A stretch of 64,000 nucleotides of DNA from Trypanosoma brucei. Lineage: Eukaryota. Every line of letters starts with the position of its first letter. Position 1 is the first letter of the stretch. This document shows, piece by piece, positions 23,611 through 51,576 of this stretch. Both the position numbers and the translations under genes were made by a program. The notes under the pieces were generated by a model. That model saw only the letters and a program-made list of their open reading frames with translations. It searched no databases and was not told where the DNA came from. The stretch is from assembly GCA_000002445.1 (NCBI GenBank), contig CP000071.1, positions 1,536,001-1,600,000 of the forward strand. Direction: 5' to 3'.

Positions 23611-26600
23611 ATGCTCAGAACTCGCTTGTCACTTGTCAGATTCAGTTTCCCACAGAGCACATTACGCCGGTGCTTCACACGGGGAAGCGAGGCGAGGAGG
23701 CCCACTTGCAACGGTGCACTGCCGAATACATGCCACTGGTCATTGTTGCGACACAATAGCAATGGTAGCGATGCAAGTAAAGGTTCGGCGGCGATGGAGG
23801 AGATAGCACCAGAGATGGTGACAATAGAAATTCTACCAGTGGAGGGGGATTATCCCCTCCAAACTGACGGAGACTGTGACCGCAGCGGTGGGAGTTCGCA
23901 CAATAGTCGCGGCAGCGATGGCATGACTGGCGGTGTGGACGTTGCATCCAAACGCATGCAGCAACAGCAATATTGGGATGTAACGAGCATCGATCACTTT
24001 TCTAAGAGCCGGGTGCTAAACTACGTCCGCCGGACCGGTAATCAATCCGCTAATGTTTTTGACATCAGTGAGGAGCAGATGTTTGGGAAAACGGTCTACC
24101 GCGCGCGGTGCAAACTGCCGCTGCCTGCTCCGCATCATTTATACCTAGCTGAAGGCGTAGGTGAGGATGAGCGAGATGCGGTATTACTTGCTGCAATGCA
24201 CGCGGAACGTGTGTGTGATGCGTTGGGTGTTCCGCTTTTCCGTCTACCACTCATGCAGAAAAAGCATGCGGATAATGCACGGCGGCAGGGGCGTTATGCA
24301 CCCATACCTGGGGATCCCATCAAACCGGAGAATACAATTACACCACCACCTCTGCGGATGGTCTCGGTCCCTAACTGTCAGGCGAAGTCAGAAGTAAAAC
24401 AGGTCTTTTCTTCGTCGATTGCCGAAGCGGAAATTATCAGTGATGACGGCCCACCTGGTGTCCGTTCTTCTTATGCAGCTGGAAGGAAACTAGAGTCTGT
24501 AAGAACAGCAGCACCTGCATCTGGCAGTACTCTCCCAACTGCTGTTGCCGATAATAAGAAAAAAGAAGAGGAGATTGAGGAAGATATGGATGGAGGGAGC
24601 AGCGAAACTTTATACCACACGACAGTGCACTACCCATGGCTCACCCCCAGTGGACGAGAGGGTATTGGAGATGGAGTAACGGGGACGGTAGCGGGATCGA
24701 TGAGTATTCCCCCGGCATCTGCCGCCTTTGACCCGACAGAGGGTGGGCTGTGGCAGATGGTTAACACAACTTCTACTCGGTGCTCCCCTTCCCCAGATGC
24801 GCTGTTGTTGCCGTGTGTATACGAGGCGGCAGCACACGGGCGAATGAAGGATCACTTTCTTCAACAAGGAATGTCCCTCAAGGATCGCGTAACTTTCACC
24901 CATGTGGCCGTCGCCAATCACTCGACACGGATGTACGTAGCGGAACTCTTCCTCCATGACACTGTAGTGGCGCGTGGCAAGGCACAGACAAAGGAGTGTG
25001 CGGAGCATCTTGCGGCTATGCATGGGGAATTGCTTCTGGATGCTCTCGCTCGACCTCTTTTCCCTCAGGACCCTGAGCGTCAAGCGCGGCACGCTGAAGC
25101 CGTCGCACGGTTTGGTCGTTGGGCCCCAAACCCCAAGACGGGTGACTTGCAACACCCGCGTCTGCACGACGTATTGCCCTTACCCCTGAAGCAACAAGTG
25201 GGTGGTGATGATGTGTGGATGGACCCAATGGTCTTGCGGCGCTGCGGTTACCAACGCAGCATGAGTGAGCGAATGATATCTTCACACATTGAAATCAATA
25301 ACTACTGTGGGGATTACATTGAGGCAAACCCCGACCCCGCTCTGTTAGAGGAGGCACGGCGGGCGCTGGAAGTGTGGCAACGTGATGTTGCCCGCAATCC
25401 GCATCCCGATTTGTTTGTAATCACCCGTATGGGTGATCAATTCCGTGCGAGTACTCTACTTCCTGTCCCCAAGGAATTTGGCATTCGTGGGGGAAATGGA
25501 GTGGGAAAAACGATGGAGCAAGCGATGGATTTATGCGCCCTACATGCTGTGGATACACTCTGCGCACTTGGTGTTCCCCTCTTTACAAACCGCAAGAAAC
25601 AGGAGGCATTTGTTGAAGCAAGACGGAAAAGGGGGCTCGTAACCGCGGACGTCATGGGAGGTTTGAAGAAAAAAAACGGACTGGTCGCCATTATTGCCCC
25701 GTCACTACGATCAGAGGGTGATACAGCATCAGCGAACGCTTCGGTGGGGTGCGCTGTCGGCGCGGGTGGCAGCGATCGGGTGAAGAAGGAGAGACCCCCT
25801 TATTTGCCTGGTTACATGGTTGAGGGCAACCAGCCACGACCGCTGCCGCACATCTGCGATACGCTTCGTATATTACAGCTGCGCATCCCGGAAGACTTCA
25901 CGGTGTATGGGGAAGGGCTTACCGATGAGTCCATTATAGAGGTAGGCAATGAGGCGAAGGTATGCGTTCAGAATTACCTGAGACAGCATTTACCAAAGAA
26001 TGCCAATGTGAATGCGTCTGTTTACATAACGGGCTATGGCAGGCAGGTTAGCGTTCACAATATTGCCTACCTTCCACTTGTTTTGCCGCGACGGAGAGAA
26101 GGTGCAGTAGGAAGGGGCAAAGTTGTTGGTGAGGACACAAGCACCAAAAATTCCACGCCATCAGTAGCAAAAACAGCGGATGGTGAGTTAAAAGAAAGAA
26201 ATGAATCAAAGGGTGCGGAAGGCGCCGCTACAACGTCGCTTTGTGTGGCAGGCAAGACAGGAAGTGAAGAAGTTGAGTCGTCTCAGGTCCACAGCGGGGG
26301 GACGCAAGATGGGGTGGAGAACCCTAAAGAGCGTGGGGAACCAACAGAGCGTCTTCTGGCGATTGGAATTTCGCTTAAGAAGAAGGACGCGGAGAGAGTG
26401 TGTTATCTTCATGCTGTTGACATTCTCCGAAGGAATGGTGTGGATGTGCTCTCAACCTACCGTGCGGGGCTTCCACGCCGCAAGGGATTGCAATCACCAA
26501 CACAATCTCCCTCAACAGCGGGAGAGGAAACGAGGGGCGGTGGTGGTGGTGCGGTGGCAGACGTAGCGACTTCAACCAAGCCCATGGTGAAGTGCAACGA

Positions 26601-26757
26601 AGAGTGTAAGAAGCCTCAAACTGGCGGAGAGTCGGGGCAGCCACCAGCACTTCCCAAGCCGTACATGCATAAACTCATGAAAAACTTCATGGAAAGCGGA
26701 AAGCATTATACACCACCAAAGCGACGATCATCTCCCAGTCCTCACTCACCCTTTTGA
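23611..26757 (+). CDS. Probable mitochondrial protein (1048 aa) carrying four dsRBD-like repeats.
   Basis: The ATG was checked. The N-terminus 'MLRTRLSLVRFSFPQSTLRRCFTRG' is Arg/Ser-rich and amphipathic, like a mitochondrial presequence. Four repeats end in the dsRBD C-terminal-helix signature G.G.(S/T)K..A...A...A...L...GVPLF. They are '...GVGEDERDAVLLAAMHAERVCDALGVPLF', '...RGKAQTKECAEHLAAMHGELLLDALARPLF', '...GVGKTMEQAMDLCALHAVDTLCALGVPLF' and '...SLKKKDAERVCYLHAVDILRRNGVDV'. Each is preceded by beta-strand-like segments; for example 'SRVLNYVRRTGNQSANVFDISEEQMFGKTVYRARCKL' resembles dsRBD helix-1 through beta1–3. Confidence 0.6.
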   Translation: MLRTRLSLVRFSFPQSTLRRCFTRGSEARRPTCNGALPNTCHWSLLRHNSNGSDASKGSAAMEEIAPEMVTIEILPVEGDYPLQTDGDCDRSGGSSHNSRGSDGMTGGVDVASKRMQQQQYWDVTSIDHFSKSRVLNYVRRTGNQSANVFDISEEQMFGKTVYRARCKLPLPAPHHLYLAEGVGEDERDAVLLAAMHAERVCDALGVPLFRLPLMQKKHADNARRQGRYAPIPGDPIKPENTITPPPLRMVSVPNCQAKSEVKQVFSSSIAEAEIISDDGPPGVRSSYAAGRKLESVRTAAPASGSTLPTAVADNKKKEEEIEEDMDGGSSETLYHTTVHYPWLTPSGREGIGDGVTGTVAGSMSIPPASAAFDPTEGGLWQMVNTTSTRCSPSPDALLLPCVYEAAAHGRMKDHFLQQGMSLKDRVTFTHVAVANHSTRMYVAELFLHDTVVARGKAQTKECAEHLAAMHGELLLDALARPLFPQDPERQARHAEAVARFGRWAPNPKTGDLQHPRLHDVLPLPLKQQVGGDDVWMDPMVLRRCGYQRSMSERMISSHIEINNYCGDYIEANPDPALLEEARRALEVWQRDVARNPHPDLFVITRMGDQFRASTLLPVPKEFGIRGGNGVGKTMEQAMDLCALHAVDTLCALGVPLFTNRKKQEAFVEARRKRGLVTADVMGGLKKKNGLVAIIAPSLRSEGDTASANASVGCAVGAGGSDRVKKERPPYLPGYMVEGNQPRPLPHICDTLRILQLRIPEDFTVYGEGLTDESIIEVGNEAKVCVQNYLRQHLPKNANVNASVYITGYGRQVSVHNIAYLPLVLPRRREGAVGRGKVVGEDTSTKNSTPSVAKTADGELKERNESKGAEGAATTSLCVAGKTGSEEVESSQVHSGGTQDGVENPKERGEPTERLLAIGISLKKKDAERVCYLHAVDILRRNGVDVLSTYRAGLPRRKGLQSPTQSPSTAGEETRGGGGGAVADVATSTKPMVKCNEECKKPQTGGESGQPPALPKPYMHKLMKNFMESGKHYTPPKRRSSPSPHSPF

Positions 26758-27399: not shown

Positions 27400-28248
27400 A
27401 TGTCCTTGTCATCCACCACAATCAACTGTCTTGGTTGCACAACCACACAAGGTTCAACCGCCTCCGGTACGCAGTATGTTAGCCACAGACACCGACTGCA
27501 GCGGACCTCCTGCTGGATGGAGCTCGCATGTTTTAACGGTTTCCCAGAAACCCCATCCCTCTCCGGGTCTTTAGTTCAGCAACGTCATAATTTGCTGGAC
27601 TCTGTCAAATCCGCGGGGCCTCCGGGGCCTGTCTTTCGCGTGGAATTTGAACTTTTTGATGATGAATCGCCCAAGACTTGTGCGAACTTCAGGAATTTGT
27701 GCGCAGGGCGCACAACCAGCCGGAAGGGTGAGACATACTGGTTCCAGGGTGTCGTGCCTTCCTACCGCGGGACATACTTTCACAAGATTATTCCACAATT
27801 CTGCGCTCAAGGCGGGGACCTCACCATGCGGGTAGACAATGGCGCGAATCATTTGAGTAGCTTCGGTCGCGGTTGGTTCGCGGATGAGTATAAGCGACGG
27901 CGGATGAACGAAGTCGGGCTCTTGGCGATGGCCAACAACGGACCCAACAGCAACGGCTCGCAATTTTTCATAACCACGTCTGACTCAAATGAGAAGGCGC
28001 TCAACGGTCGTCACGTTTGCTTTGGCCGAGTGGTGCAGGGCCTGAAGGAGTTCATGCATGAGGTTGCTCCCTTTGGCGACAGTGCTGGCTATCCATCACG
28101 TTTTATTGTCGTTACGGACTGCGGGGAAGGGCCACTACCAGCTACGCTCGGCTCCACATTGCCGGATAAAACACCTGCAGCTGATATTAGCGAAGAAGGA
28201 GCTCGGGAATGCGGGAGGGTGTCGGTGAAGTCCCCTTCCGGCGGGTAG
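27400..28248 (+). CDS. Cyclophilin-type peptidyl-prolyl cis-trans isomerase (282 aa) with an N-terminal extension of about 75 aa.
   Basis: The ATG was checked. Cyclophilin signatures are present: 'FHKIIPQFCAQGGD' (human CypA 'FHRIIPGFMCQGGD') and 'MANNGPNSNGSQFFITT' (CypA 'MANAGPNTNGSQFFICT'). Confidence 0.85.
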   Translation: MSLSSTTINCLGCTTTQGSTASGTQYVSHRHRLQRTSCWMELACFNGFPETPSLSGSLVQQRHNLLDSVKSAGPPGPVFRVEFELFDDESPKTCANFRNLCAGRTTSRKGETYWFQGVVPSYRGTYFHKIIPQFCAQGGDLTMRVDNGANHLSSFGRGWFADEYKRRRMNEVGLLAMANNGPNSNGSQFFITTSDSNEKALNGRHVCFGRVVQGLKEFMHEVAPFGDSAGYPSRFIVVTDCGEGPLPATLGSTLPDKTPAADISEEGARECGRVSVKSPSGG

Positions 28249-28713: not shown

Positions 28714-31700
28714 ATGGATCCGCACCCAACGCCACTGAATCCCGATGCCACATGGGATGACAATGGCTTACTATTTACGCTCCTGATGGGTGCTTTTGCA
28801 TTTATAGGACTCGGTGCCGTTAGTGCTTTCACAGTGTATGCACCATCGATGTGGTTGCGCCGTGTCTTTCGGTTAAATCATACTGCTGTTGTTCTTGTTG
28901 AGGAAGAGCCCCTTGGTGGTGATGTGGAGACACTCCAGGCTCCCGATGACAAGGAACCGCGATATCGGAGAGTTGGATGTGCTCTTCCTTATCCATGCTC
29001 ACTGTTCGTTTTACCCAGTTGGAAGTGCTGGCTGAGTGTAGAGGAAGAGGTGGAGGGTCTGGAAAATGTTTTTAAACCTTTAGTCGATTCAGAAAGTGGT
29101 AACCCCGCGGGTATCGGCGACAACGCAGACGACAGGGGAAGCGCAGTGGGTGATGATGATGAGACGGCTCCACTTACTCGGGACCACATTTCCAGTGAGT
29201 ACCCGGCCACAGTTGAGGTTGACATAGAGGGTGTTTCCTCTGGAAGTCCAGTAGGCAACGTGCCGTCCCGGACGAATGGCGCACCAAAAACACCATTGGA
29301 CCCGCATGTTGCAGTCTACCTGTACTTCCTGAAGTTGTTCTCGACCGTGTTTATCCTAGGTTCTTGCATCAATTTGTGGATCTGTGTCCTGGCGGGAACA
29401 GACGATTATCGGGAGAAGAGTATGGTAAGCATGGATGAGAAGCATTGTGGTGCGCAAGGGAGTAACAGAACTGGGTGCATGGAACTCATGCCGTACTGCC
29501 ACTACACGGATGCAGACACCTGCGTTCCTGTGCCCCTTCACGGTATTTATGATCTGACAGTGAGGAACATTACACCGAACAGCTGGCGTTTGTGGTTTGT
29601 AGCTCTCCTTGATATGGCGTTTTGTTTGTTTTTTATTGCGGCCATCGTCTATTACCTCCGGAAGGTGGATAAATATGTTGAAACAGTGATGCGACACCAG
29701 ATGGAGTGCGCAGTTGGCCATCGAGTAGCGATTGTTGGCGGGTTAAAAGGGAGGGTATTAACGGAGGCGGCGTTTCGGCGACGTTATCTTCAGGAGGACT
29801 CGTACTTTGGCCCAAACAGGCGTGGCGTGAATACCTTTCGCTATCCAGTCGCTGTCGCAAATGCGCTCATGGGTGGAACACTGAGCGTTGATGACGGTGA
29901 TACGTATCATCAGTATGATTGTGGCGGATTGAGTTGTATCTTTTCGTCTTGTTTTTTCACTCGGTACAAAACAACACGGTCAAACGCCGTTTTCCTGCAA
30001 GATGGGAGCGTTCGGCGCATGCTATTCCCACGTGACCCACCACCCGGTATGTACACCTATATGGACAAAACTGAGGAAGCGATGGAGGGCCTGCAGGAGG
30101 CCGTCGCCGATTACAAGGTTTTTCACAAGTTAGCGAATCACGTGAGTTACAAGAAGCGGCAGGAGTTGCACAAAAAACTGCTTCTCGTGCGTGCTTCTTT
30201 CCCGTTCTGTTTCAGCATGATATCCAAAGTTGACTACTGGAAAAAGGCCTTCATTGAGCGGGCAACAAAGCTGAATCGTTTTGTAGATGAGGTACCTGCT
30301 AGGAAACCTAAGGGGATTGCTTATGTTGTGTTTGACAATTCACTCGCAGCCTACGAGTTTGTAAACCTTTTTTACGCCCAGCACAGAGGAGCTTCAGGCA
30401 CATGGGCGGCCATTGCAGGCCCCTCTAATGGCATAATCGAAATGAACATCACAACGAACCGACAAGTGGGCTGGGTGCGGCGTATTGTGGTCGCTGTGAT
30501 ATATATTTTAATGTTGCTGTTTTGGTCTGTCCCTGTCGGTTTTCTGAGTTCCATTGACAATATTTCCAAAATCCCCGGAATGGGATGGCTCTCTCGAGAT
30601 TCTTCCAAGTTGCCTGAAAATGTCCGAAGTGCTATCGCAGCTCTTCTACCGGTTGGTGTGCTCGCGTTGTTTAACATAGCACTCCCTTATATTGTCCGCA
30701 TTCTTGCCATTGCCATGGGGGTAATAAACATGTACGAGCGTGAGGAGTGTGCATTACACCTACAGTACCTTTTCATGGTCCTTACTGGTGTCATATTTCA
30801 GGCTCCGCTTCAAAACGGCATGGAAGAGTTGAACCGCTTGATTACAGAAATATCGCGCGATAGCATTGCAAAGCTTTTCGTAACTTTTGTAACTCCGGAG
30901 GGAGGTTATTGGTACACGAAGGTTGTTATGGGCTTGTGTGTATCCACATGGGTTGCATTTCTCAACCCTGGGACGCTGACTCTGGTTGTGCTGCAGCACA
31001 AGCTGGCGAATGTGCAGCGTGTGTACAACGAACTCTTTGGTCCTTGTCTGTTCGAGTGGCCGCACCTGTACAGCTTCGATCTTTCCCTATTAGCCATGGG
31101 GCTTCTCTTCCACATGACTGTTCCGTTGCTTTCGTTTTTTGTTGGCATCTACTTCGTTGTGCGCTACTTTACGCAGCGTGGCATGCTGTACGACCGTTAC
31201 CGCCCTGAAAATCATCCGCGTCAGGACTGTACCCCATTCGGTGCGGCAGGAATGGTTATTCGTGCAGCTTGTTGGTTGTATTGCTTAGGCGCAGTTGGCG
31301 GGGTGTTGTTCATGAACGAATTGGATCATTTGGGTGGACTACTCATTTGTTCTGTTTCGTTTACCCTGAGTGTGATCCTGTTGGCCTACACACACATCAC
31401 AACTCGTCGATGGATCGCTACCTTACCTAATGCACGGAGACTCCTCAGGAACAGAGTACCTCGCTCAGTCCAAACGCAGTATGGCACCTCCCGCAGCGCC
31501 GACAATGTGGTGGCCCCTAAGTTACCTAACCCCAAACCACCAGCACGTGCAGAAGAAGAACGCAGGGAGGCTGATAGCGCCGTCACTTTCCAGGGAGCAA
31601 CATTGCCTGTTGTGCCAAGAAAACAGTATTCCATGGAAACGTTGGACTTGGGCTTCGACGGCGTCGCGGGTCCGACACATTGCGCGCCAACGACGTCACT

Positions 31701-32028
31701 CCTCTGGCAAAGCCGAGGGATGCAAAGCTCCCCGGTAGGTTCAGTTTGTAACCTCCAAGACCCTGACGGTACCGAAATGGAAGGTGTGGTTGAGTGGGAT
31801 GCCGCACCTGATGCGGAAGACGATATGCTTTATCACAGAATGTCCCTATTGCCACACAATCCTAATGTGGATTCCCGCTACAATCCCAGACACCAGCAGC
31901 TTCAGCGCATAAACATCACACGTGAGATTGAGCGGTTAGAGGAAACCATATTCCATGTGGAACGTTACTGGGACGCTCCGTACTCAGAAGTCAACCCGGA
32001 AGAATGTGGCATCATAGAACAGCGGTAG
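28714..32028 (+). CDS. Multi-pass membrane protein of the DUF221 / CSC1 / OSCA / TMEM63 family (calcium-permeable, stress- or mechano-gated cation channel fold), 1104 aa.
   Basis: The ATG was checked. 'GIAYVVFDNSLAAYEFVNLF...TWAAIAGPSNGIIEMNITTNRQVGWVRRIVVAVIYILMLLFWSVPVGFLSSI' aligns to the OSCA1/CSC1 'AFVSFK..W.AAVCAQ...W....AP.P.DV.W.NL.....R....V.....FF...P..FV.SL' cytosolic RRM-like domain and the following TM. 'LAMGLLFHMTVPLLSFFVGIYFVVRYFTQRGMLYDRY' aligns to OSCA 'FLLGLVYAPVTPMLLPFILVFFALAYIVYRHQIINVYNQEY'. Multiple predicted TM helices are present. Confidence 0.7.
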   Translation: MDPHPTPLNPDATWDDNGLLFTLLMGAFAFIGLGAVSAFTVYAPSMWLRRVFRLNHTAVVLVEEEPLGGDVETLQAPDDKEPRYRRVGCALPYPCSLFVLPSWKCWLSVEEEVEGLENVFKPLVDSESGNPAGIGDNADDRGSAVGDDDETAPLTRDHISSEYPATVEVDIEGVSSGSPVGNVPSRTNGAPKTPLDPHVAVYLYFLKLFSTVFILGSCINLWICVLAGTDDYREKSMVSMDEKHCGAQGSNRTGCMELMPYCHYTDADTCVPVPLHGIYDLTVRNITPNSWRLWFVALLDMAFCLFFIAAIVYYLRKVDKYVETVMRHQMECAVGHRVAIVGGLKGRVLTEAAFRRRYLQEDSYFGPNRRGVNTFRYPVAVANALMGGTLSVDDGDTYHQYDCGGLSCIFSSCFFTRYKTTRSNAVFLQDGSVRRMLFPRDPPPGMYTYMDKTEEAMEGLQEAVADYKVFHKLANHVSYKKRQELHKKLLLVRASFPFCFSMISKVDYWKKAFIERATKLNRFVDEVPARKPKGIAYVVFDNSLAAYEFVNLFYAQHRGASGTWAAIAGPSNGIIEMNITTNRQVGWVRRIVVAVIYILMLLFWSVPVGFLSSIDNISKIPGMGWLSRDSSKLPENVRSAIAALLPVGVLALFNIALPYIVRILAIAMGVINMYEREECALHLQYLFMVLTGVIFQAPLQNGMEELNRLITEISRDSIAKLFVTFVTPEGGYWYTKVVMGLCVSTWVAFLNPGTLTLVVLQHKLANVQRVYNELFGPCLFEWPHLYSFDLSLLAMGLLFHMTVPLLSFFVGIYFVVRYFTQRGMLYDRYRPENHPRQDCTPFGAAGMVIRAACWLYCLGAVGGVLFMNELDHLGGLLICSVSFTLSVILLAYTHITTRRWIATLPNARRLLRNRVPRSVQTQYGTSRSADNVVAPKLPNPKPPARAEEERREADSAVTFQGATLPVVPRKQYSMETLDLGFDGVAGPTHCAPTTSLLWQSRGMQSSPVGSVCNLQDPDGTEMEGVVEWDAAPDAEDDMLYHRMSLLPHNPNVDSRYNPRHQQLQRINITREIERLEETIFHVERYWDAPYSEVNPEECGIIEQR

Positions 32029-33225: not shown

Positions 33226-34821
33226 ATGACCGTTATTGTTGCTGGGATAGTCAACAAACAGGGGGGCATTGTCCTCTCGCGGCACTTCAACGACATCACT
33301 CGCGTTCGTGTTGAGGGCCTTCTTTCCGCCTTCCCTCGGTTGATGGAGGCATCGACTAACAAGCAAGTGACGTACGTCGACGCGGGTGCAGTCCGTTACG
33401 TCTACCAGCCACTGGATGATTTATTTCTTGTGCTTATAACCACGCGCAGCAGCAACATTGTGGAGGACCTCGACACGCTGCATCTCATGGGTCGCCTTAT
33501 TACGGAGCACGTCGGAACAGTGAGCGAGGTGTTTTTGCAGGAGAAGGCTTTCAAGGTGTTCTTTGCTTTGGACGAAGTGATCGTTGGAGGCCGGCGTGAA
33601 AACACAACCACGGAGCAGATACAAACCTACCTGGAGATGCAGTCACACGAAGAAATGATGGTCCGAGAAGAGAAGCGGTTGCAAATGGAACGTGCGAAGA
33701 AGGACGCATCGCGTAAAGCGCACGAACTACGCGACAAACGTCAACGCGGACTGAACCCGTACACCGGTATCGGCTCAGACAGCGTAGGTTATGGCAGTGG
33801 GGGAGCAGCAGTGAGTGTAAGCCGACCCGCGGCTGAGGCAAGCAGTCGGATAGATACTATGGATGAATTGGGTCCCACTCGAATAGCTGGGATGGCGAGC
33901 GGAAGTGCTGACTCTTTGTCCGGCCGAAAGGTTGGCCGCGGCGGTGGTTTGGCGCTTGGAGTTGCGAGAAAAGCCGATATCACTTCACGTGTGCTGCAAG
34001 AAGCCGGATTACCGGTGGGTGCGGTTGCAACCAAGCTGCCGGTAGGGGATGCAGGGGCTGCAGCAAAGGCACCGGAGTTTGATGGCCCAATCGAGGGTAT
34101 TCACGTTGTCGTGGAGGAGAAAATTAGTGCTACCCTCGATCGTGATGGCGCAAGCGGTCCCGTCGATGTGCGCGGCGAGCTTTCCGTACTTGTCAACGAC
34201 CCGCACCTGGCAAACGTGAAGTTGATGCTTTCTCCAACAAGCGACGAGTTCTCATTCCGTGCTCACGCTAAGGTGCACAAGGAAATATTCGCAGAAGACC
34301 GTGTCTTAGCGATGCGGGAAAACAAACCGTTCCCTGTCCACCAGCCCGTCACAATCTTACGCTGGCGACTCAACAACTCTTCCGGTGTTCAGCCCCCTCT
34401 TACGTTTTCTTGCTGGCCCAACGCTGGGAGCATTACAGTTGAGTATGAAATATCCAATGCGGATTTGGTTGAACAGGGATTATGCGACGTGCGCGTGACG
34501 CTTCCTCTACGTGGTGCGGTCGCTGCTACGGTGGAGTCGACGACTGGTTCGTGTAGCACTCAGGAGGACTGTGTGGTGTGGCAGATCCCCCAAGTGAGCA
34601 ACCATGTGAATGCAAGCGGAAACTGTGAGGTGGTACTCGCCGATCCCGATTGCGCTGCATCCGGCGCCGACGAAGTGTTTTTTCCGGTTGATGTTACCTT
34701 CAAAACGCGAGCAACCGCTGCACACGTGCGTGTGCTGGAGGTCGTGCAGACGGAGAACGGAGTACCGGTGAAATTCACTCAAGAGACGCAACTCACTGCG
34801 GAAGGATACAACGTACAGTAA
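33226..34821 (+). CDS. Coatomer (COPI) delta subunit, 531 aa.
   Basis: The ATG was checked. The N-terminal longin-like domain 'MTVIVAGIVNKQGGIVLSRHFNDITRVRVEGLLSAFPRLM' matches human ARCN1 '[40 protein letters not shown]'. 'FLQEKAFKVFFALDEVIVGGRRENTTTEQIQTYLEMQSHEE' is the conserved delta-COP linker. The C-terminal ~250 aa are beta-rich, consistent with a mu-homology domain. Confidence 0.85.
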   Translation: MTVIVAGIVNKQGGIVLSRHFNDITRVRVEGLLSAFPRLMEASTNKQVTYVDAGAVRYVYQPLDDLFLVLITTRSSNIVEDLDTLHLMGRLITEHVGTVSEVFLQEKAFKVFFALDEVIVGGRRENTTTEQIQTYLEMQSHEEMMVREEKRLQMERAKKDASRKAHELRDKRQRGLNPYTGIGSDSVGYGSGGAAVSVSRPAAEASSRIDTMDELGPTRIAGMASGSADSLSGRKVGRGGGLALGVARKADITSRVLQEAGLPVGAVATKLPVGDAGAAAKAPEFDGPIEGIHVVVEEKISATLDRDGASGPVDVRGELSVLVNDPHLANVKLMLSPTSDEFSFRAHAKVHKEIFAEDRVLAMRENKPFPVHQPVTILRWRLNNSSGVQPPLTFSCWPNAGSITVEYEISNADLVEQGLCDVRVTLPLRGAVAATVESTTGSCSTQEDCVVWQIPQVSNHVNASGNCEVVLADPDCAASGADEVFFPVDVTFKTRATAAHVRVLEVVQTENGVPVKFTQETQLTAEGYNVQ

Positions 34822-37111: not shown

Positions 37112-37770
37112 ACGGTGCTTAAACGCGTGCAAATCCCTCCTCCCTTCTGCATACCCACACACAAATGTCCTTTTTATTATTTTTACTGGCATGCTTATTT
37201 ATGTGATAGTCATCACTATTTTTTTTTTATTGCTGCAGTGGTTTCGTTGATTGCAGATCAAGCAAATAGTTCTTTGCTCCTATTGGTGACCGGTCGAATG
37301 CGTGTCTCCATTGTGAAGGAAAAAAGGAGAGAGGGTAGCTAGTCAAAATCAGAGTCTGCCAGAGAAGTTTAGTTTAATATATTACACCTTATAATATACC
37401 ATTGCTTTTTCTTTCATCTTTCGGCGGTTAGTCGTCTGGACTTCTCGTCGATGCCGTGTTTTTCCCCCCTTCTTCCTTGCTGGTCGCTCGCATCAAGTAA
37501 TACTAACAGATCTCAACGAATTGTTTTGTTGATTGGCTTGAATATATATATATATATATATATATTATCCGCTTTGTTTTTGTTTTTCGGTATTTCCTTC
37601 TGTTGTTGAGGATGTGACATGCGGTGTGAGCGGTTGCGATTACGGTGAACGAATTGCTTCATCTTTTCTTCTGCCTCTCTTGTTTCTTTTCTTTTTTTCT
37701 TTACATTTTTGGTATCAACGCATTTGAGTGGAGTGTGTTCACTGCCACGCCTTCAGTTGCGGTGGGAAAG

Positions 37771-38544
37771 ATGTTACGGTGCGCACGCGTGGCGCTGCGA
37801 GCTGACCCACTGAATGGCGGCAGTTCCATGACGTTGGGCTCGAAAGGAAGTAAACTATCGCCTGAACCCCATAGGAGACGTATGCCATGGACTGCAGCGA
37901 AGGAATACGTACCGGGTGTTGTTCTCAATGCACGGGATAAGATGGTGCTTGATGGCGTACAACTCCTTGATATTGAAAGTATTGACCGAGCCTCGCAATT
38001 AGATCCGCTGGAAGTGCTTCGCGCCGTCGTAGCCACACGTGAGTACAACATCTCCACGGGGAAGAATATTTTCCAACTAGCTTCGCAGGCGACTTACAAT
38101 GGGCGCGGCCAGCGGTTTTATCGAAAGGAGTGGCAGGAAGGCACATACGACAAGTACGTAACTCTTTCAGCCATAGACTTTGACCGTGACGGGAATAAAG
38201 GGACAGCATATGGTTACATAACGTTCCATGGTGAAACAACAACGCGACCGGTACAAGTTGATTTCGCGGATGTACCCGGGTGGTACATGGATTTCGTGGA
38301 AGAGCGGGCAGTTCCCTTCACTGGCATTGTCCCGCCACCACCGAGTATTGGAACGGATGTGCCCGTTGATCCACATAGTTATCGTCTCAAGGCGTATCCT
38401 TACTATGACGCACCGAACCCGCCCGAATTCGTGGAGCGACTGCTGAAGGATCGTGGTGTATTGCCCGACACCCCAACTGAAACGGCTGATGTTGATAAAG
38501 ATCCCACCACTAGCGATGGGTCGGTGCATTATGATGGAAAGTAG
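37771..38544 (+). CDS. Hypothetical protein of about 257 aa with a presequence-like N-terminus (probable organellar protein).
   Basis: The track ORF starts at 37645, but that upstream part translates a hydrophobic, low-complexity T-rich tract. The internal ATG at 37771 gives 'MLRCARVALRADPLNGG...', a typical mitochondrial-import-like start. The downstream sequence is of ordinary complexity. Confidence 0.5.
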   Translation: MLRCARVALRADPLNGGSSMTLGSKGSKLSPEPHRRRMPWTAAKEYVPGVVLNARDKMVLDGVQLLDIESIDRASQLDPLEVLRAVVATREYNISTGKNIFQLASQATYNGRGQRFYRKEWQEGTYDKYVTLSAIDFDRDGNKGTAYGYITFHGETTTRPVQVDFADVPGWYMDFVEERAVPFTGIVPPPPSIGTDVPVDPHSYRLKAYPYYDAPNPPEFVERLLKDRGVLPDTPTETADVDKDPTTSDGSVHYDGK

Positions 38545-39346: not shown

Positions 39347-41200
39347 ATGTTCCTTTATCTTATCATCGATGGAGACTACCTTCTCTCCGGAATGGAGCCC
39401 ACGTCGGAGGCCGCCGTGTACGAGGTTGTGGAAAAGATAAACGATGTCATCCGCACTCGCTTTTTGCTCGACGCCGATTCCTGTGGGATGTCGTCAACTG
39501 AAAAACGTGTGATTTTCTTCTCTTCAACCATCATGAAGGTGCTGCAGCGGAGACAGCAGCGTGACTTGCTCATAGGTACACTTCGTCGGCTCCGCTTTCA
39601 AACACTTGTACTGGATTGCATCGCCAGTCGTACTGGTTCACCGGTCGACGCCGCGATGTGCACGAAAACAATGGCATTTTTTTCGAATATTGCAGGAACC
39701 ACTAGTTTGGGTTCCGCATTGTCTGCATCCTCAGCAAATACAACATATGTGTACATGACAGCCAATGCGCACATTGCACCAGCGCTGGAGTGGGTTCACA
39801 ATGCAGGTTGTGGCGTCTGCTTCATTGTATATGAGGGTGACTCTGTGGCTGACGAACTAATGGCCTATGCAGGCCCAATTCACGGTAACAGTGGTGGCAT
39901 AGGAAAGGTTGTAAAGGGAAATGGTGTTCACTTTGTCACCAGCACCGAAGCGGCACGCGCTGCACTGGCGCTCTTAGAACAGGAGGCAAAGGAGCTTCCC
40001 CTTGTAGTGCAGTTGCAACTTCGCAAACTGCAAAAGCAGATGGCGGGGGAGGATGACGGCGACATCGGTGAGCAAGGTAGCGCCCACTGCGGGAAAAGCT
40101 GCTTCACCGAAGCACGTGAAAACAGCAGTAGCACCCCTGCTCATATAATGCCACCTCCAATCGAGGGTATTGAGAGCCCGTTTGTGGGGGCCGAAAAGGG
40201 TGGAAGCAGAAGGGAGAGTGGTGGCGAAAGCGAAAAAACTTCTCGTGTGGAAGCCTCTTGTCAGGTAGCAACCAAGGAGCGCGCTGAAATGAAGGCATCT
40301 TTCCCTGCCAGCGAGGTGGAAAACTCACCCAGCACCTCTACGCTCGTACGAGAAACTTCGGTGCCCGCGGTGCCGTCCCAAGCTGCTGCTCCAACTGAGG
40401 TGGATACCCTCGAATTTCCTGAACCTGCCGTATCTACACGCCTTCCGGCCGGTTGGGCACTGATGTATGACCGGCAGCGCCGGCGGCATTATTTTGTTCA
40501 AACGCAGAGTAATGGTAAGGTCACGACAACGTGGACGCACCCGGGAGGTATCGCCGAGCAGATGGACTTGGAACGGCAGGTGGATGAGTGGTACGCGAAG
40601 CAGCAGTTGCGTAAGCTTCAGGGCAGAGATATCCCCCTGCCCGTGACGGACGTTCCCACCTCCAGCATTAGTGCTGTTGCCACCGGTAATATGGGTATGC
40701 CCATGCCCGTTTCCCCGGCGCCGCCAGCAGTTTCTGTTCTGCCACCACCATGGGAAGAACATGTGGATCCCAAGAGCAGGCGTGTGTTTTACGTCAACCA
40801 TCAAACACGCGAAACAACATGGGTGCGCCCTCAATGCGTCATGTCCCAACAGCACCAACCCCTGGTACCTTCTCCAGTCACTGTGACTCCGGTTGTTCAA
40901 CCACAGGCGCCAGCAGCAGCAGCGTTGCCGCCATTCTGGGAGGAGCGTGTTGACACGAAGAGCGGACGTGTGTTCTATGTTAATCATCAAACACGCGAAA
41001 CAACTTGGTCGCGTCCACAGGTGGGTCTGCCTCAGCAGGGTCAGCCGATACCTGCTAGTCAAACTAACGTGCCAGTAGTTGCCCCTCCACTTGCAACATC
41101 GGCTCTACCACCCTTCTGGGAAGAACATGTGGATCCCAAGAGCGGGCGTGTGTTTTACGTCAATCATCAAACACGTGAGACAACTTGGACACGTCCTTGA
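39347..41200 (+). CDS. Protein with an N-terminal NYN/PIN-like (LabA-type) nuclease-fold domain, an acidic and Ser-rich linker, and four WW domains (617 aa).
   Basis: The ATG was checked. The N-terminus 'MFLYLIIDGDYLL...' and 'GSPVDAAMC...VCFIVYEGDSVADELMAYAG' resemble the NYN/LabA pattern (vfiDgeNl ... gKnaaDial ... vLvSgDsDf). Four WW domains with the W...W...P pattern follow: 'LPAGWALMYDRQRRRHYFVQTQSNGKVTTTWTHP', 'LPPPWEEHVDPKSRRVFYVNHQTRETTWVRP', 'LPPFWEERVDTKSGRVFYVNHQTRETTWSRP' and 'LPPFWEEHVDPKSGRVFYVNHQTRETTWTRP'. Confidence 0.7.
   Translation: MFLYLIIDGDYLLSGMEPTSEAAVYEVVEKINDVIRTRFLLDADSCGMSSTEKRVIFFSSTIMKVLQRRQQRDLLIGTLRRLRFQTLVLDCIASRTGSPVDAAMCTKTMAFFSNIAGTTSLGSALSASSANTTYVYMTANAHIAPALEWVHNAGCGVCFIVYEGDSVADELMAYAGPIHGNSGGIGKVVKGNGVHFVTSTEAARAALALLEQEAKELPLVVQLQLRKLQKQMAGEDDGDIGEQGSAHCGKSCFTEARENSSSTPAHIMPPPIEGIESPFVGAEKGGSRRESGGESEKTSRVEASCQVATKERAEMKASFPASEVENSPSTSTLVRETSVPAVPSQAAAPTEVDTLEFPEPAVSTRLPAGWALMYDRQRRRHYFVQTQSNGKVTTTWTHPGGIAEQMDLERQVDEWYAKQQLRKLQGRDIPLPVTDVPTSSISAVATGNMGMPMPVSPAPPAVSVLPPPWEEHVDPKSRRVFYVNHQTRETTWVRPQCVMSQQHQPLVPSPVTVTPVVQPQAPAAAALPPFWEERVDTKSGRVFYVNHQTRETTWSRPQVGLPQQGQPIPASQTNVPVVAPPLATSALPPFWEEHVDPKSGRVFYVNHQTRETTWTRP
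40739..41197 (+). repeat. In-frame tandem repeat with a period of about 180–186 nt (2.5 copies) encoding WW domains 2–4. Copies 2 and 4 are near-identical at the nucleotide level.
   Basis: 40739–40831, 40925–41017 and 41105–41197 share 'tgggaagaacatgtggatcccaagagc[a/g]ggcgtgtgttttacgtcaa[c/t]catcaaacacg[c/t]ga[a/g]acaac[a/t]tgg'. Confidence 0.85.
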
Positions 41201-45889: not shown

Positions 45890-46936
45890 ATGCGATTTGT
45901 TTCTCGACGACTGTCGTTTCTTTCGCCTCCAATAATACCGCTTCCTAAACCTGCACCGACAGCGGACGCGAAACCTTTCTTTGCACCCTCCAGCAATGAG
46001 AAGGGCAGCGCCGCTTTTGCGTCACCCTCCACGAAACATCAAACATATGTGAAGAAGAATGCGACATCATCAAGCGGTGCTGCTACGTTGGAGTCAGCGA
46101 CAGCTAAGGCTACACGTAGCGCCCAGGCCACGGGAGAGCCATGCACTAAATTTAACGGCAGTAGCACAAACGGTACGAGGAGAAGCGGTGACAACTGTGC
46201 TGCGGAGAAGGTGCATCATTTGCCAAGGTTCCTTTCACCCGACAACATAATTAAGCGTGTAGCCACACCGGCACTGTTTGCCGCCTCTATTGTCGCCGAT
46301 ACCTTGAACGCACCGGCTGCGTTGAGCGGTGGTTCTTCAGCAGTAAATGAGGAAGGTGGTCTCCAGAAATACGTAGAGCACTGTATGTTAGGCTGGTCTC
46401 CCAGTGAACTTTACAATGTTGTGGCTGATGTGTCGCAGTATAGCGTTTTCTTGCCGTGGTGTTTAGATTCCACCGTGCATCAAGTGGGCCCACTGGGCAC
46501 TACAGAAACAGCGTCTGAGACGGCTAATGGCAACGCTAATGTCAGTGGCAATGACAATGGCAATGGTGTAGCACCTGCTACGTTGGAAATGTTGGCGACG
46601 TTAACTGTAGGGTTTTCTTTTTTCAGGGAGAAATACACCTCGCGGGTGCTGCTCGATCCGCACAAGCGAGTAGAGGCGATGCTCACGGAGGATGAACACA
46701 AGAAGCGCCCCGCAGCCCTCAGGAATCTGAAATGTGTATGGGAGTTTCACGAGGTTCCAGATTCCCCTCGTAAAGTGGAGGTGCGCTTCCTCGTGAGCTT
46801 CGCTTTCAAGAACCCCATGTACTCCAAACTTATTATGTCACATGTGGTGTCCATTATGACGACGAGCTTCGAAAAACACTGTGAAGTGTTGTATGGACCA
46901 CCCAGCTGTGTGCGAGTGCATCTGCCGCACAACTAA
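45890..46936 (+). CDS. COQ10-like START/SRPBCC (polyketide-cyclase fold) protein, 348 aa. It has a presequence-like N-terminus and an N/G-rich low-complexity insertion.
   Basis: The ATG was checked. 'YVEHCMLGWSPSELYNVVADVSQYSVFLPWCLDSTV' resembles the Coq10/START N-terminal beta-alpha motif (..Y.e.f.y.peqly.vV.dV..Y.eFlPwC..s.v). The C-terminal 'KCVWEFHEVPDSPRKVEVRFLVSFAFKNPMYSKLIMSHVVSIMTTSFEKH' fits the START C-terminal helix. The insertion is 'TASETANGNANVSGNDNGNGVAPA'. Confidence 0.65.
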   Translation: MRFVSRRLSFLSPPIIPLPKPAPTADAKPFFAPSSNEKGSAAFASPSTKHQTYVKKNATSSSGAATLESATAKATRSAQATGEPCTKFNGSSTNGTRRSGDNCAAEKVHHLPRFLSPDNIIKRVATPALFAASIVADTLNAPAALSGGSSAVNEEGGLQKYVEHCMLGWSPSELYNVVADVSQYSVFLPWCLDSTVHQVGPLGTTETASETANGNANVSGNDNGNGVAPATLEMLATLTVGFSFFREKYTSRVLLDPHKRVEAMLTEDEHKKRPAALRNLKCVWEFHEVPDSPRKVEVRFLVSFAFKNPMYSKLIMSHVVSIMTTSFEKHCEVLYGPPSCVRVHLPHN

Positions 46937-51503: not shown

Positions 51504-51575
51504 GTCCGTGTGGCTCAATGGAAGAGCATCTGACTACGGATCAGAGGGTTGCAGGTTCGAATCCTGTCACGGATG
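51504..51575 (+). tRNA. tRNA-Arg, anticodon ACG.
   Basis: Hand-folded cloverleaf. Acceptor stem GTCCGTG/CACGGAT with G:T at position 1:72. D arm GCTC-AATGGAA-GAGC. Anticodon arm TCTGA-CTACGGA-TCAGA, with T33 and anticodon ACG. T arm GCAGG-TTCGAAT-CCTGT. Discriminator G. The anticodon arm 'TCTGACTACGGATCAGA' matches eukaryotic tRNA-Arg(ACG). Confidence 0.9.
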
Positions 51576-51576
51576 C

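What the first reader, a model, noticed from the sequence alone, without database searches (positions are those of the whole stretch)
39347..41200. NYN/PIN-like nuclease domain fused to four WW domains, the last three encoded by a recently homogenised tandem DNA repeat
The N-terminal ~180 aa ('YLIIDGDYLL...GSPVDAAMC...FIVYEGDSVADELMAYAG') resemble the NYN/LabA-type PIN-like RNase fold, with Asp residues at the expected metal-binding positions. The C-terminal half carries four WW domains. WW domains 2–4 are encoded by 180–186-nt repeats with near-identity between copies 2 and 4. That suggests recent duplication or gene conversion, and it is also a likely site of assembly collapse. An RNase-like fold coupled to proline-motif (PPxY/PPLP) readers would be an unusual way to recruit a nuclease to a protein partner, for example RNA-processing or decay machinery in an organism with almost purely post-transcriptional control.
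Basis: partly seen in the sequence, partly recalled or inferred. Interest (0 to 1): 0.65.

Follow-up and report, generated by a model that had tools for sequence, protein, structure and literature searches.

The report
Trypanosome WW-repeat protein, doubtful nuclease domain
This is an uncharacterised Trypanosoma brucei protein with three clear proline-motif-binding WW domains, a fourth divergent one, and a conserved front domain that only weakly resembles an NYN RNA-cutting enzyme and lacks half of that enzyme's essential catalytic residues.

Summary
The ORF at 39347-41200 (+) is real. It is 100% identical to T. brucei TREU927 XP_847359.1 / Q57UK1, annotated only as "WW domain-containing protein".

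**WW domains.** Three are canonical NEDD4-like domains (53-59 bits each). A fourth is divergent and falls below Pfam's threshold on its own.

**DNA repeat.** The period is 186/180 nt, but whole units are only 64-68% identical and the linkers are unrelated. Only a 59-nt patch shared by WW2 and WW4 is nearly identical (2 differences), which suggests a short gene-conversion tract. WW3 is saturated at synonymous sites. The T. b. gambiense protein has the same length, which argues against assembly collapse.

**N-terminal domain (aa 1-~190).**
- HMMER finds no NYN or PIN similarity in Pfam, NCBIfam, the PDB or 1.84 billion proteins.
- A targeted profile-profile test against real PF01936 sequences gives a weak, collinear match (score 28.5, P about 0.001; shuffles reach at most 23.6). 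A HAD control scores 14.
- In the best register, D8 and D101 sit at NYN catalytic positions. The other two essential Asp positions are Ser59/60 and Asn140.

**Verdict.** This is most likely a kinetoplastid-specific WW adaptor carrying a remodelled, probably non-canonical NYN-like domain. Interest is moderate.

The parts
39347..41200 (+). Complete ORF, 617 aa plus stop. Equals T. brucei TREU927 XP_847359.1 / UniProt Q57UK1, 'WW domain-containing protein'.
   Evidence: 100% identity, exact look-up.
39347..39916 (+). N-terminal conserved alpha/beta domain, aa 1-190. Predicted elements: b1 2-8, a 21-43, b2 53-59, a 60-81, b3 84-89, a3 99-117, disordered loop 118-131, b4 132-137, a4 140-152, b5 156-162, a5 166-179, b6 184-188. 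Candidate divergent NYN/LabA-like fold.
   Evidence: Two AF2 models give the same element order, pLDDT about 60. hhalign vs PF01936 sequences: score 28.5, P=0.0011. Invariant residues.
39365..39379 (+). IDGDY (aa 7-11), at the end of b1. D8 is invariant and aligns with the NYN motif I Asp (MARF1 D178 position).
39515..39526 (+). FFSS (aa 57-60), at the end of b2. S59/S60 are invariant. MARF1-type NYN has an essential Asp at the end of b2 (D215); none is present here.
   Evidence: This part of the register is low-confidence.
39635..39655 (+). GSPVDAA (aa 97-103). D101 is invariant, lies at the N-terminus of helix a3, and aligns with the NYN motif II Asp (MARF1 D246 position).
39755..39775 (+). 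MTANAHI (aa 137-143; family consensus T-P-N-A-Y-I). Aligns with the NYN motif L-V-S-G-D-G-D-F, so both Asp are replaced (N140, H/Y142).
   Evidence: this is the highest-confidence stretch of the hhalign alignment. Conservation.
39830..39859 (+). YEGDSVADEL (aa 162-171), end of b5 and start of a5. G164 and D165 are invariant; E170 is invariant among the 13 sequences and in at least 90% of the 16 sequences. It is not the canonical NYN D-x-D motif. On the page it resembles HAD motif IV (GDxxxD), but that is not supported by profile comparison.
39941..40042 (+). Two conserved helices (aa 199-232, TEAA..ALALL..E.K.LPL..L.QLK.LQ) that follow the alpha/beta core.
40052..40420 (+). Poorly conserved S/E/A/P/G-rich linker (aa 236-358). 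Contains one conserved linear motif, PPPIEGIESPF (aa 269-279, nt 40151-40183; consensus PPP[IL]xGxP[ND]PF in other kinetoplastids).
   Evidence: No Pfam hit.
40442..40543 (+). WW1 (aa 366-399). Divergent WW with a longer b2-b3 loop. W370, W396 and P399 are invariant.
   Evidence: 16.5 bits alone.
40544..40621 (+). Conserved extension after WW1 (aa 400-425, GG..EQ.DLERQV..W), probably helical. It overlaps HP398-399 of WW1 at its start.
   Evidence: Q405, L408, V412 and W415 invariant. The helical character is an inference; this region was not modelled.
40736..40831 (+). WW2 (aa 464-495), canonical NEDD4-like.
   Evidence: 59.4 bits.
40922..41017 (+). WW3 (aa 526-557), canonical NEDD4-like.
   Evidence: 53.4 bits.
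41102..41197 (+). WW4 (aa 586-617), canonical NEDD4-like. The protein ends at the last residue of the domain.
   Evidence: 58.8 bits.
40751..40809 (+). 59-nt tract in WW2 that differs at only 2 positions from 41117-41175 in WW4. Candidate short gene-conversion tract.
41117..41175 (+). Partner tract in WW4 of the candidate conversion event.

Best explanation
The gene encodes a kinetoplastid-restricted, functionally uncharacterised modular protein.

**C-terminal half (shown).** It carries one divergent WW module with a conserved extension, followed by three canonical NEDD4/YAP-type WW domains. Their Tyr-pocket and XP-groove residues (F-Y-V-N-H-x-x-R-x-T-T-W) predict binding of PPxY-type ligands on other proteins. 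No orthologue contains a conserved internal PPxY, so binding is in trans. The specificity is inferred.

**N-terminal ~190 aa (inferred, about 55% likely).** It is a strongly conserved six-stranded alpha/beta domain. It is most likely a very divergent relative of the NYN/LabA ("LK-nuclease", PF01936) branch of PIN-like nucleases. Its invariant residues fall at the C-terminal strand ends, where NYN enzymes bind metal. The chemistry is remodelled: Asp8 and Asp101 are kept, the Asp at the end of beta2 is Ser59/Ser60, and the SGD Asp at the end of beta4 is Asn140. An extra invariant Asp165 sits at the end of beta5.

**Likely function (inferred).** Each of the four Asp is individually essential in MARF1, so this domain is probably not a canonical Mg2+-dependent NYN RNase. 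More likely it works as an RNA- or ligand-binding pseudo-nuclease, or as an enzyme with an altered site, that the WW array tethers to PPxY-bearing partners.

**Repeat evolution.** The WW array evolves under strong purifying selection with occasional short gene conversion. Examples are the WW2/WW4 patch in T. brucei, WW3=WW4 in T. cruzi and WW2~WW3 in T. congolense.
For: **ORF and identity**
-.

**Taxonomic restriction**
- An exhaustive profile search of 1.84 billion representatives finds 9 full-length relatives. All have the same architecture and none is a NYN protein.

**WW domains**
- Pfam E=5e-42 overall; 53-59 bits each for WW2-4.
- The best PDB matches are NEDD4L, ITCH, YAP1 and WWP1.
- No conserved internal PPxY.

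**N-terminal domain**
- Both AF2 models give the same b-a-b order with six strands.
- The hhalign score against real, Pfam-verified PF01936 sequences rises as the NYN profile is broadened: P=0.3, then 0.006, then 0.0011, reaching score 28.5.
- Null controls: 400 shuffles have mean 13.2 and maximum 23.6; the reversed query scores 17.3. 87 decoy segments from the same window reach at most 21.7. A HAD_2 profile scores 14.2.
- The true superfamily pair NYN vs Regnase-1 scores only 20.9 in the same set-up.
- With relaxed settings the alignment extends over the whole domain, pairing LIIDGDY with vfIDgsNly.

**Literature**
- Catalytic-residue requirements of NYN: PMC6217404.
- Precedent for LK-nuclease+WW fusions in plants: PMC2848206.
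- Predicted inactive members exist in NYN clusters: PMC5499597.

**Repeat evolution**
-.
Against: - No HMMER-level similarity to NYN or PIN in Pfam, NCBIfam or the PDB.
- The hhalign probability is only 20%. A P of 0.001 would not survive a whole-library search.
- Two presumably unrelated alpha/beta families (NYN vs HAD_2) reached 23.0 over 28 columns. Real-family nulls therefore have heavier tails than shuffles.
- Single family members score only 12-19.
- The metagenome-only NYN sub-profile gives only 17.8.
- Both AF2 models are low-confidence (pLDDT 60.7 and 59.6).
- I could not inspect model coordinates, so clustering of D8, D101, N140 and D165 in space is inferred from topology only.
- WW ligand class, RNA binding and lack of nuclease activity are all untested.
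Confidence: 0.5

Rival explanations
1. The N-terminal domain is a catalytically active NYN/PIN-type endoribonuclease. The WW array recruits it to PPxY- or PPLP-bearing RNA-binding or decay factors, which would give trypanosomes a targeted endonucleolytic mRNA-decay route.
For: - The same fold-level evidence as the best explanation.
- Three invariant acidic residues (D8, D101, D165), plus conserved E170 (invariant, at least 90%), lie at C-terminal strand ends or helix starts.
- From my own knowledge, other PIN-like families (VapC, Regnase-1, PRORP) place an acidic residue after the fifth strand, so a D8/D101/D165 triad could still bind one metal.
- NYN+WW fusions exist in plants.
- WW-PY contacts already link trypanosome RNA-binding proteins ZFP1, ZFP2 and ZFP3 (abstract of bioRxiv 10.1101/002170).
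Against: - In the best register, the Asp at the end of beta4 (SGD) and the Asp at the end of beta2 are Asn140 and Ser59/60 across the family.
- Each corresponding single Asp-to-Ala change abolishes MARF1 activity, and D272A phenocopies the null in mice.
- Fold assignment itself is uncertain.
Confidence: 0.15
2. The N-terminal domain is a lineage-specific Rossmann-like domain that is not homologous to NYN/PIN. The specific alternative is a HAD-superfamily (DxD) phosphatase-like domain, which would make the protein a WW-targeted phosphatase or pseudophosphatase.
For: - Read directly from the sequence, the family invariants look like HAD motifs.
  - hhhhD8-G-D10 at the end of b1 (motif I, DxD).
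  - FFS59S60 at the end of b2 (motif II, S/T).
  - G164-D165-S-V-A-D169 (motif IV, GDxxxD), followed by ..A..AG.
- All HMMER searches fail to find NYN.
- Structure searches return generic three-layer sandwiches.
Against: - hhalign against 37 real viral HAD_2 sequences gives null-level scores: 14.2, and 10-14 with the cap columns removed. Motif I is never paired with motif I.
- HAD cores have no extra beta-alpha unit between the motif III region and motif IV, whereas this protein has b4-a4 there.
- D10 is Gly in T. vivax.
- No HAD family appears in Pfam at E<=10.
- For a P-loop NTPase reading, there is no GxxxxGK[ST] motif after b1 in any orthologue.
Confidence: 0.25
3. The protein is a NEDD4/WWP1-like E3 ubiquitin ligase, as some database records for T. 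rangeli and T. conorhini orthologues name it.
For: - Source names are "putative NEDD4-like E3 ubiquitin-protein ligase WWP1".
- The best PDB matches of the WW region are NEDD4L, ITCH and WWP1.
Against: - The similarity is confined to the WW domains.
- No HECT (PF00632) or C2 domain is found, and the protein ends at the last residue of WW4.
- True NEDD4-family hits in the same search carry PF00632 and PF00168 and match only 15-36% of the query.
Confidence: 0.02

Closest known systems
LK-nuclease / NYN (PF01936; LabA-like, Vibrio VPA0982 = PDB 2qip) fused to WW domains in plants (Anantharaman, Zhang & Aravind 2010, PMC2848206)
   Same: - Candidate same fold at the N-terminus.
- Same idea of a PIN-like module joined to WW protein-interaction modules.
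- Collinear profile match to PF01936 sequences.
   Different: - The kinetoplastid domain does not reach any HMMER threshold for PF01936.
- It lacks the SGDxDF motif and the Asp at the end of beta2.
- It has an extra disordered loop and two C-terminal helices.
- It carries 3+1 WW domains.
- I could not retrieve the plant proteins to compare them directly.
MARF1 / limkain-b1 NYN domain (PDB 5yaa, 6fdl)
   Same: - Six parallel strands in an alpha/beta/alpha sandwich.
- Asp at the end of b1 and at the N-terminus of a3.
   Different: - MARF1 has four essential Asp and a proven ssRNase activity. It is coupled to RRM and LOTUS RNA-binding domains.
- Here two of those Asp positions are Ser and Asn, and the partner domains are WW.
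NEDD4-family and YAP WW arrays (class I, PPxY-binding)
   Same: - WW2-4 match at E=1e-18 to 1e-24 for the array.
- They share the Y/F-Y-V-N-H...R.T.W ligand-pocket residues.
   Different: - No C2 or HECT domain, and no TEAD-binding region.
- The WW array is C-terminal and ends the protein.
N4BP1 / KHNYN / Regnase-1 (Zc3h12a-type PIN-like RNases)
   Same: - PIN-like RNase modules used in mRNA decay.
- From my own knowledge, N4BP1 was found as a partner of the WW-containing ligases NEDD4 and ITCH. A nuclease-WW link therefore exists there in trans.
   Different: - This is a different PIN-like family (PF11977).
- hhalign of the trypanosome domain against Regnase-1 is at noise level (16.1, in the wrong region).
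Trypanosome ZFP2/ZFP3 (CCCH zinc finger + WW) and their PY-motif partner ZFP1
   Same: They show that WW-proline-motif contacts are used among post-transcriptional regulators in the same organisms.
   Different: - Those are small proteins with a single WW domain and a CCCH finger.
- There is no sequence relation outside the WW domain.

Membership tests
WW domain (PF00397) | Profile match above Pfam's gathering score | tested here: met
   The whole protein scores 141.9 bits against a 26.9-bit cut-off. WW2, WW3 and WW4 alone score 59.4, 53.4 and 58.8 bits. WW1 alone scores 16.5 bits, which is below the cut-off.
WW domain (PF00397) | Two Trp about 20-23 residues apart followed by x-x-Pro, with central aromatic residues | tested here: met
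   W469...W492..P495, W531...W554..P557 and W591...W614..P617 are present. WW1 has W370...W396..P399 with a longer loop. All are invariant across orthologues.
Class I (PPxY-binding) WW | Tyr pocket (aliphatic-x-His ... Lys/Arg/Gln) and actual PPxY binding | not testable with these tools
   The residues V-N-H...R are present in WW2-4 by inspection, and the best PDB matches are class I domains. Binding itself was not tested.
NYN / LabA-like / LK-nuclease (PF01936) | Profile-HMM match above the gathering score (24.2 bits) | tested here: not met
   No PF01936 hit at E<=10 for the T. brucei protein or for any of 13 orthologue N-termini. My control NYN sequences score 85-139 bits.
NYN / LabA-like / LK-nuclease (PF01936) | Remote homology by profile-profile comparison | tested here: inconclusive
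   hhalign gives score 28.5, P=0.0011, probability 20%, over 87-147 collinear columns. This is above 400 shuffles (maximum 23.6), 87 decoys (maximum 21.7) and a HAD profile (14.2). It is below any library-wide significance level.
NYN / LabA-like / LK-nuclease (PF01936) | Alpha/beta/alpha sandwich with a six-stranded parallel sheet | tested here: inconclusive
   [not shown]
NYN / LabA-like / LK-nuclease (PF01936) | Four conserved Asp, at the ends of b1, b2 and b4 and at the N-terminus of a3, each essential in MARF1 | tested here: not met
   D8 and D101 are present. The end of b2 is S59/S60 and the end of b4 is N140 (SGDxDF becomes T-A/P-N-A-H/Y-I).
NYN / LabA-like / LK-nuclease (PF01936) | Metal-dependent ribonuclease activity | not testable with these tools
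   This needs a biochemical assay.
NEDD4-family HECT E3 ligase | C-terminal HECT domain (PF00632), usually with an N-terminal C2 domain | tested here: not met
   No such Pfam hit, and the ORF ends with WW4.
HAD-superfamily phosphatase | Profile similarity to HAD families, and the four motifs in the canonical S1-S2-S3-S4 order | tested here: not met
   hhalign against 37 real HAD_2 sequences scores 10-14 (P 0.24-0.69). An extra b-a unit lies before the putative motif IV, and there is no Pfam HAD hit. The motif-like strings DxD, SS and GDxxxD are present by eye only.
P-loop NTPase | Walker A motif GxxxxGK[ST] after strand 1 | tested here: not met
   [not shown]

The most novel reading that the evidence does not exclude
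The N-terminal domain could be a remodelled but still active PIN/NYN-type endonuclease that uses a D8/D101/D165 acidic triad. The WW array would deliver it to PPxY-bearing RNA-binding proteins. That would be a previously unrecognised, adaptor-guided endonucleolytic mRNA-decay pathway specific to kinetoplastids.
Probability: 0.12. Interest if true: 0.75.

Novelty: new variant of a known kind. Interest (0 to 1): 0.4.

Why it matters
Trypanosomatids control gene expression almost entirely after transcription, yet few endonucleases or adaptors that choose mRNAs for decay are known. This protein is conserved across kinetoplastids. It joins three PPxY-type readers to a conserved domain whose invariant residues sit where PIN/NYN nucleases bind metal.

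If the domain is active, it is a new targeted RNase. If it is inactive, it is an example of a pseudo-nuclease reused as a binding module.

In both cases the N-terminal domain is unannotated in public records and unrecognisable to HMMER. The motif map given here (D8, S59/S60, D101, N140, D165) provides concrete mutants to test.

The finding also corrects misleading "NEDD4-like E3 ligase WWP1" names on some orthologues.

Tried and rejected
**Homologue searches that returned nothing**
- The search for homologous proteins with the N-terminal alignment found nothing.
- The same search with the N-terminal domain alone also found nothing, not even the protein itself. I read this as a word-index artefact.

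**Structure prediction and fold search**
- A second AF2 run with 16 sequences was no better than the first (pLDDT 59.6 vs 60.7).
- The afdb50 fold library was unavailable.
- Foldseek against the PDB gave only generic Rossmann-like hits with E>0.003.

**NYN profiles**
- A narrow NYN profile (80 gamma-proteobacterial 2qip relatives) gave P about 0.3. It could not detect MARF1 either, so it had no power.

**HAD-phosphatase idea**
- I raised it myself from motif resemblance and tested it. Profile comparison rejected it.

**Other comparisons rejected**
- Regnase-1-type PIN: noise-level score.
- P-loop NTPase: rejected for lack of a Walker A motif.
- E3 ligase annotation: rejected for lack of a HECT domain.
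- Tandem Repeats Finder found no array.

**Literature**
- Searches by accession, by "WW domain" plus Tb927 identifiers, and by Leishmania identifiers found no functional study.
- The only mentions are in differential-expression tables, for what are probably the Leishmania orthologues LmxM.16.1140 and LINF_160017100.
Full report
**What is there**

The window carries a 617-codon ORF at exactly 39347-41200 on the + strand. An exact look-up identifies it as Trypanosoma brucei TREU927 XP_847359.1 / AAZ13293.1 / UniProt Q57UK1. The T. equiperdum protein is identical. Sources name it "hypothetical protein, conserved" or "WW domain-containing protein".

The T. b. gambiense protein is also 617 aa, with nine substitutions and no indel. 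Orthologues with the same architecture occur across Trypanosoma, Leishmania, Porcisia, Novymonas and some unnamed, more divergent sequences.

The neighbourhood is a typical trypanosome polycistron of unrelated genes on the + strand.

**The WW half**

Pfam finds four WW stretches, E=5e-42 overall. Taken one at a time, WW2 (aa 464-495), WW3 (526-557) and WW4 (586-617) score 53-59 bits. WW1 (366-399) scores 16.5 bits, below the 26.9-bit gathering score.

WW1 is nevertheless conserved in every orthologue. W370, W396 and P399 are invariant. It has a conserved EPxVSTxLP lead-in and a conserved extension (Q405, L408, V412, W415).

The closest solved structures to WW2-4 are NEDD4L, ITCH, YAP1 and WWP1. 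By inspection, WW2-4 carry the class I ligand-pocket residues (F-Y-V-N-H-x-x-R-x-T-T-W). PPxY binding is therefore a reasonable inference, but it is untested.

No orthologue has a conserved internal PPxY, so ligands should be on other proteins. There is no HECT or C2 domain, and the protein stops at the last residue of WW4. The "NEDD4-like E3 ligase WWP1" name on some orthologues is therefore a WW-only transfer.

**The DNA repeat**

Beyond that, the evidence for a repeat array is thin:
- Tandem Repeats Finder reports nothing.
- The 96-nt cores are 74%, 84% and 78% identical.
- Whole units are 64-68% identical, and the linkers are essentially unrelated.
- The longest exact match is 27 nt.

Synonymous divergence is saturated for both pairs that involve WW3 (pS about 0.8). 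It is 0.57 for WW2/WW4 over the whole core, with dN 0.04-0.12. The amino-acid similarity is therefore mostly held by purifying selection.

The WW2/WW4 differences are strikingly clustered. A 59-nt tract (40751-40809 vs 41117-41175) has 2 differences, against 13 of 37 positions outside it. The same tract has 11-13 differences in pairs with WW3. Random placement gives such a window about 5 times in 10,000; the window length was chosen after the fact. I read this as a short gene-conversion tract.

Comparative protein data show the same process elsewhere:
- WW3 and WW4 are identical in T. cruzi.
- WW2 and WW3 differ by one residue in T. congolense.
- WW2 of T. brucei and T. congolense is of the WW3/4 type, whereas T. 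vivax and the stercorarian species keep a distinct WW2 type.

Assembly collapse is unlikely, given the divergence between copies and the identical length in T. b. gambiense.

**The N-terminal domain: sequence searches**

The first ~235 residues are the best-conserved part of the family. Invariant residues include D8, G9, Y11, S59, S60, R80, R81, G97, P99, D101, A141, G164 and D165. N140 and Y142 are near-invariant. E170 is invariant in the 13-sequence alignment and nearly invariant in the 16-sequence one.

HMMER-level searches find no similarity to NYN or PIN:
- No Pfam family other than noise at E<=10 for the T. brucei protein or 12 orthologues.
- Nothing relevant in NCBIfam.
- No PDB chain with a family profile.
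- An exhaustive profile search of 1.84 billion representatives finds only nine full-length family members and one fragment.

**The N-terminal domain: structure**

Two AlphaFold2 runs (13 and 16 sequences) gave poor models, with pLDDT 60.7 and 59.6. Both show the same order of elements: six strands alternating with helices, a disordered loop at 118-131 and two extra C-terminal helices.

The structural evidence is compatible with NYN but does not discriminate. A P-loop NTPase reading is excluded by the absence of a Walker A motif.

**The N-terminal domain: targeted profile-profile test**

No tool here runs HHpred against Pfam, so I built NYN profiles from real sequences:
- the 2qip chain, recovered with a consensus hook;
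- 80 bacterial relatives;
- 22 viral relatives;
- 27 metagenomic relatives.

Representatives were verified as PF01936 at 85-139 bits.

The hhalign score of the trypanosome family profile rose as the NYN profile broadened. It went from P about 0.3 to P=0.006 to score 28.5, P=0.0011, probability 20%, over 87 columns. With relaxed settings the alignment extended to 147 columns spanning the whole domain.

Controls:

| Comparison | Score |
|---|---|
| Trypanosome family vs broad NYN profile | 28.5 |
| 200 column shuffles and 200 block shuffles | mean 13.2, maximum 23.6 |
| Reversed query | 17.3 |
| 87 domain-sized segments of other proteins in this window | at most 21.7 |
| 37-sequence real HAD_2 profile | 14.2 |
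| NYN vs Regnase-1 (a genuine superfamily pair) | 20.9 |

Cautions:
- NYN vs HAD reached 23.0 over 28 columns.
- Single family members score only 12-19.
- The metagenome-only sub-profile gives 17.8.
- A P of 0.001 is meaningful only because NYN was a pre-stated hypothesis.

I put the probability that this is a divergent NYN/LabA-like domain at roughly 55%.

**What the register implies**

The most confident part of the alignment pairs the following:

| Trypanosome segment | NYN counterpart |
|---|---|
| LRRLRFQT (b3) | LRxxGFEV |
| GSPVD101AA | K..vDv.l |
| V-Y-M-T-A-N140-A-H142-I (family consensus L-V-T-P-N-A-Y-I) | L-V-S-G-D-G-D-F |
| VCFIVYEGD165 | the b5 strand (kVevy) |

The extended alignment also pairs LIID8GDY with vfIDgsNly.

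The MARF1 structure paper locates four Asp: at the ends of b1, b2 and b4, and at the N-terminus of a3. It shows that each Asp-to-Ala change abolishes RNase activity, and that D272A (end of b4) phenocopies the null in mice (PMC6217404).

Here the b1 Asp (D8) and the a3 Asp (D101) are kept. The end of b2 is the invariant pair S59/S60, and the end of b4 is N140.

From my own knowledge, some other PIN-like families place an acidic residue near there, so a D8/D101/D165 site cannot be excluded.

The invariant residues still line the canonical active-site edge of the sheet. This follows from topology, since I could not read the coordinates. It argues for a conserved functional pocket with changed chemistry.

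The PIN-like catalogue lists predicted inactive members within NYN clusters and does not mention kinetoplastids (PMC5499597).

**A rival I raised and tested**

The invariants also read like HAD-phosphatase motifs: DxD at the end of b1, S/T at the end of b2, and GDxxxD followed by A..AG. This would give an attractive "WW-targeted phosphatase".

Profile comparison with real HAD_2 sequences is at noise level, with or without the cap columns. Motif I is never paired with motif I. The fold has an extra b-a unit before the putative motif IV, and D10 is Gly in T. vivax. I keep this only as part of a "not NYN" rival, which I put at about 25% in total.

**Comparison with what is known**

The architecture is not unprecedented. 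Anantharaman, Zhang and Aravind (2010) defined the 2qip-type "LK-nuclease" and noted its fusion to WW domains in plants. They also noted WW fusions of its usual partner OST-HTH in several protist lineages (PMC2848206).

The kinetoplastid protein would be an extreme, HMMER-invisible variant of that theme with a half-degenerate catalytic set.

I found no functional study of the gene. Probable Leishmania orthologues (LmxM.16.1140, LINF_160017100; orthology inferred from name and chromosome) appear only in differential-expression tables.

**Verdict**

- The WW observation is confirmed, with qualifications.
- The repeat is only locally homogenised.
- The NYN idea is plausible but unproven.
- The "intact acidic site" reading is not supported.

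The most likely picture is a kinetoplastid-specific WW adaptor carrying a remodelled NYN-like module that is probably not a canonical RNase.

It is a modestly interesting, testable lead rather than a striking discovery. Interest is 0.4, and the novelty class is "new variant of a known kind".

Noticed in passing
window 51504-51576 (+): A tRNA-Arg(ACG) gene lies in the gap between the + strand gene array (last long ORF ends about 46.9 kb) and the - strand genes that begin about 57.4 kb. That gap is a convergent strand-switch region, the kind of place where trypanosome Pol II units end and tRNA genes often lie.
   Followed up: partly
window 40151-40183 (+), aa 269-279 of the ORF: A short linear motif in the otherwise unconserved linker: PPPIEGIESPF in T. 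brucei, PPP[IL]xGxP[ND]PF in most other kinetoplastids. The NPF/DPF core resembles EH-domain or adaptor-ear ligands. It is degenerate in T. brucei (SPF) and in Leishmania ([DE]LF). It hints at a trafficking link, which I did not pursue.
   Followed up: partly
orthologues P0011, P0019, P0010, P0026 (Leishmania, Novymonas and unnamed relatives): The number of canonical WW domains varies between lineages. Trypanosoma has three. Leishmania, Novymonas and some basal relatives have four, including an extra 'DWVPxVDPATGRTFYVNxKTRQTSW' type. In L. major and Novymonas, two of the four canonical WW domains that are not adjacent in the array are the most alike.
   Followed up: partly
window 40325-41062 (-): A 245-aa antisense ORF runs through the WW-repeat region. 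It has no support as a gene and is most likely a by-product of the codon composition of the sense strand.
   Followed up: no
window 23611-26757, 27400-28248, 28714-32028, 33226-34821, 45890-46936 (+); 60786-62180 (-): Pfam hits for the neighbouring ORFs, in order: a large protein with a dsRBD, a cyclophilin, a CSC1/RSN1-type 7TM channel, an adaptor-complex mu subunit, a START/polyketide-cyclase-like protein and a protein kinase. They are functionally unrelated, as expected for a trypanosome polycistron.
   Followed up: partly
window 37645-38544 (+): The ORF immediately upstream has a weak, sub-threshold match to mitochondrial ribosomal protein S34 (21.8 bits against a 24.5-bit cut-off). Its listed GTG start is probably not the real start.
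   Followed up: no
tool behaviour: the search for homologous proteins returned no hits, not even the query protein itself, when given the N-terminal domain alone or its alignment. The full-length query had found 20 family members. Negative results from that tool on this domain should not be read as absence of relatives.
   Followed up: no
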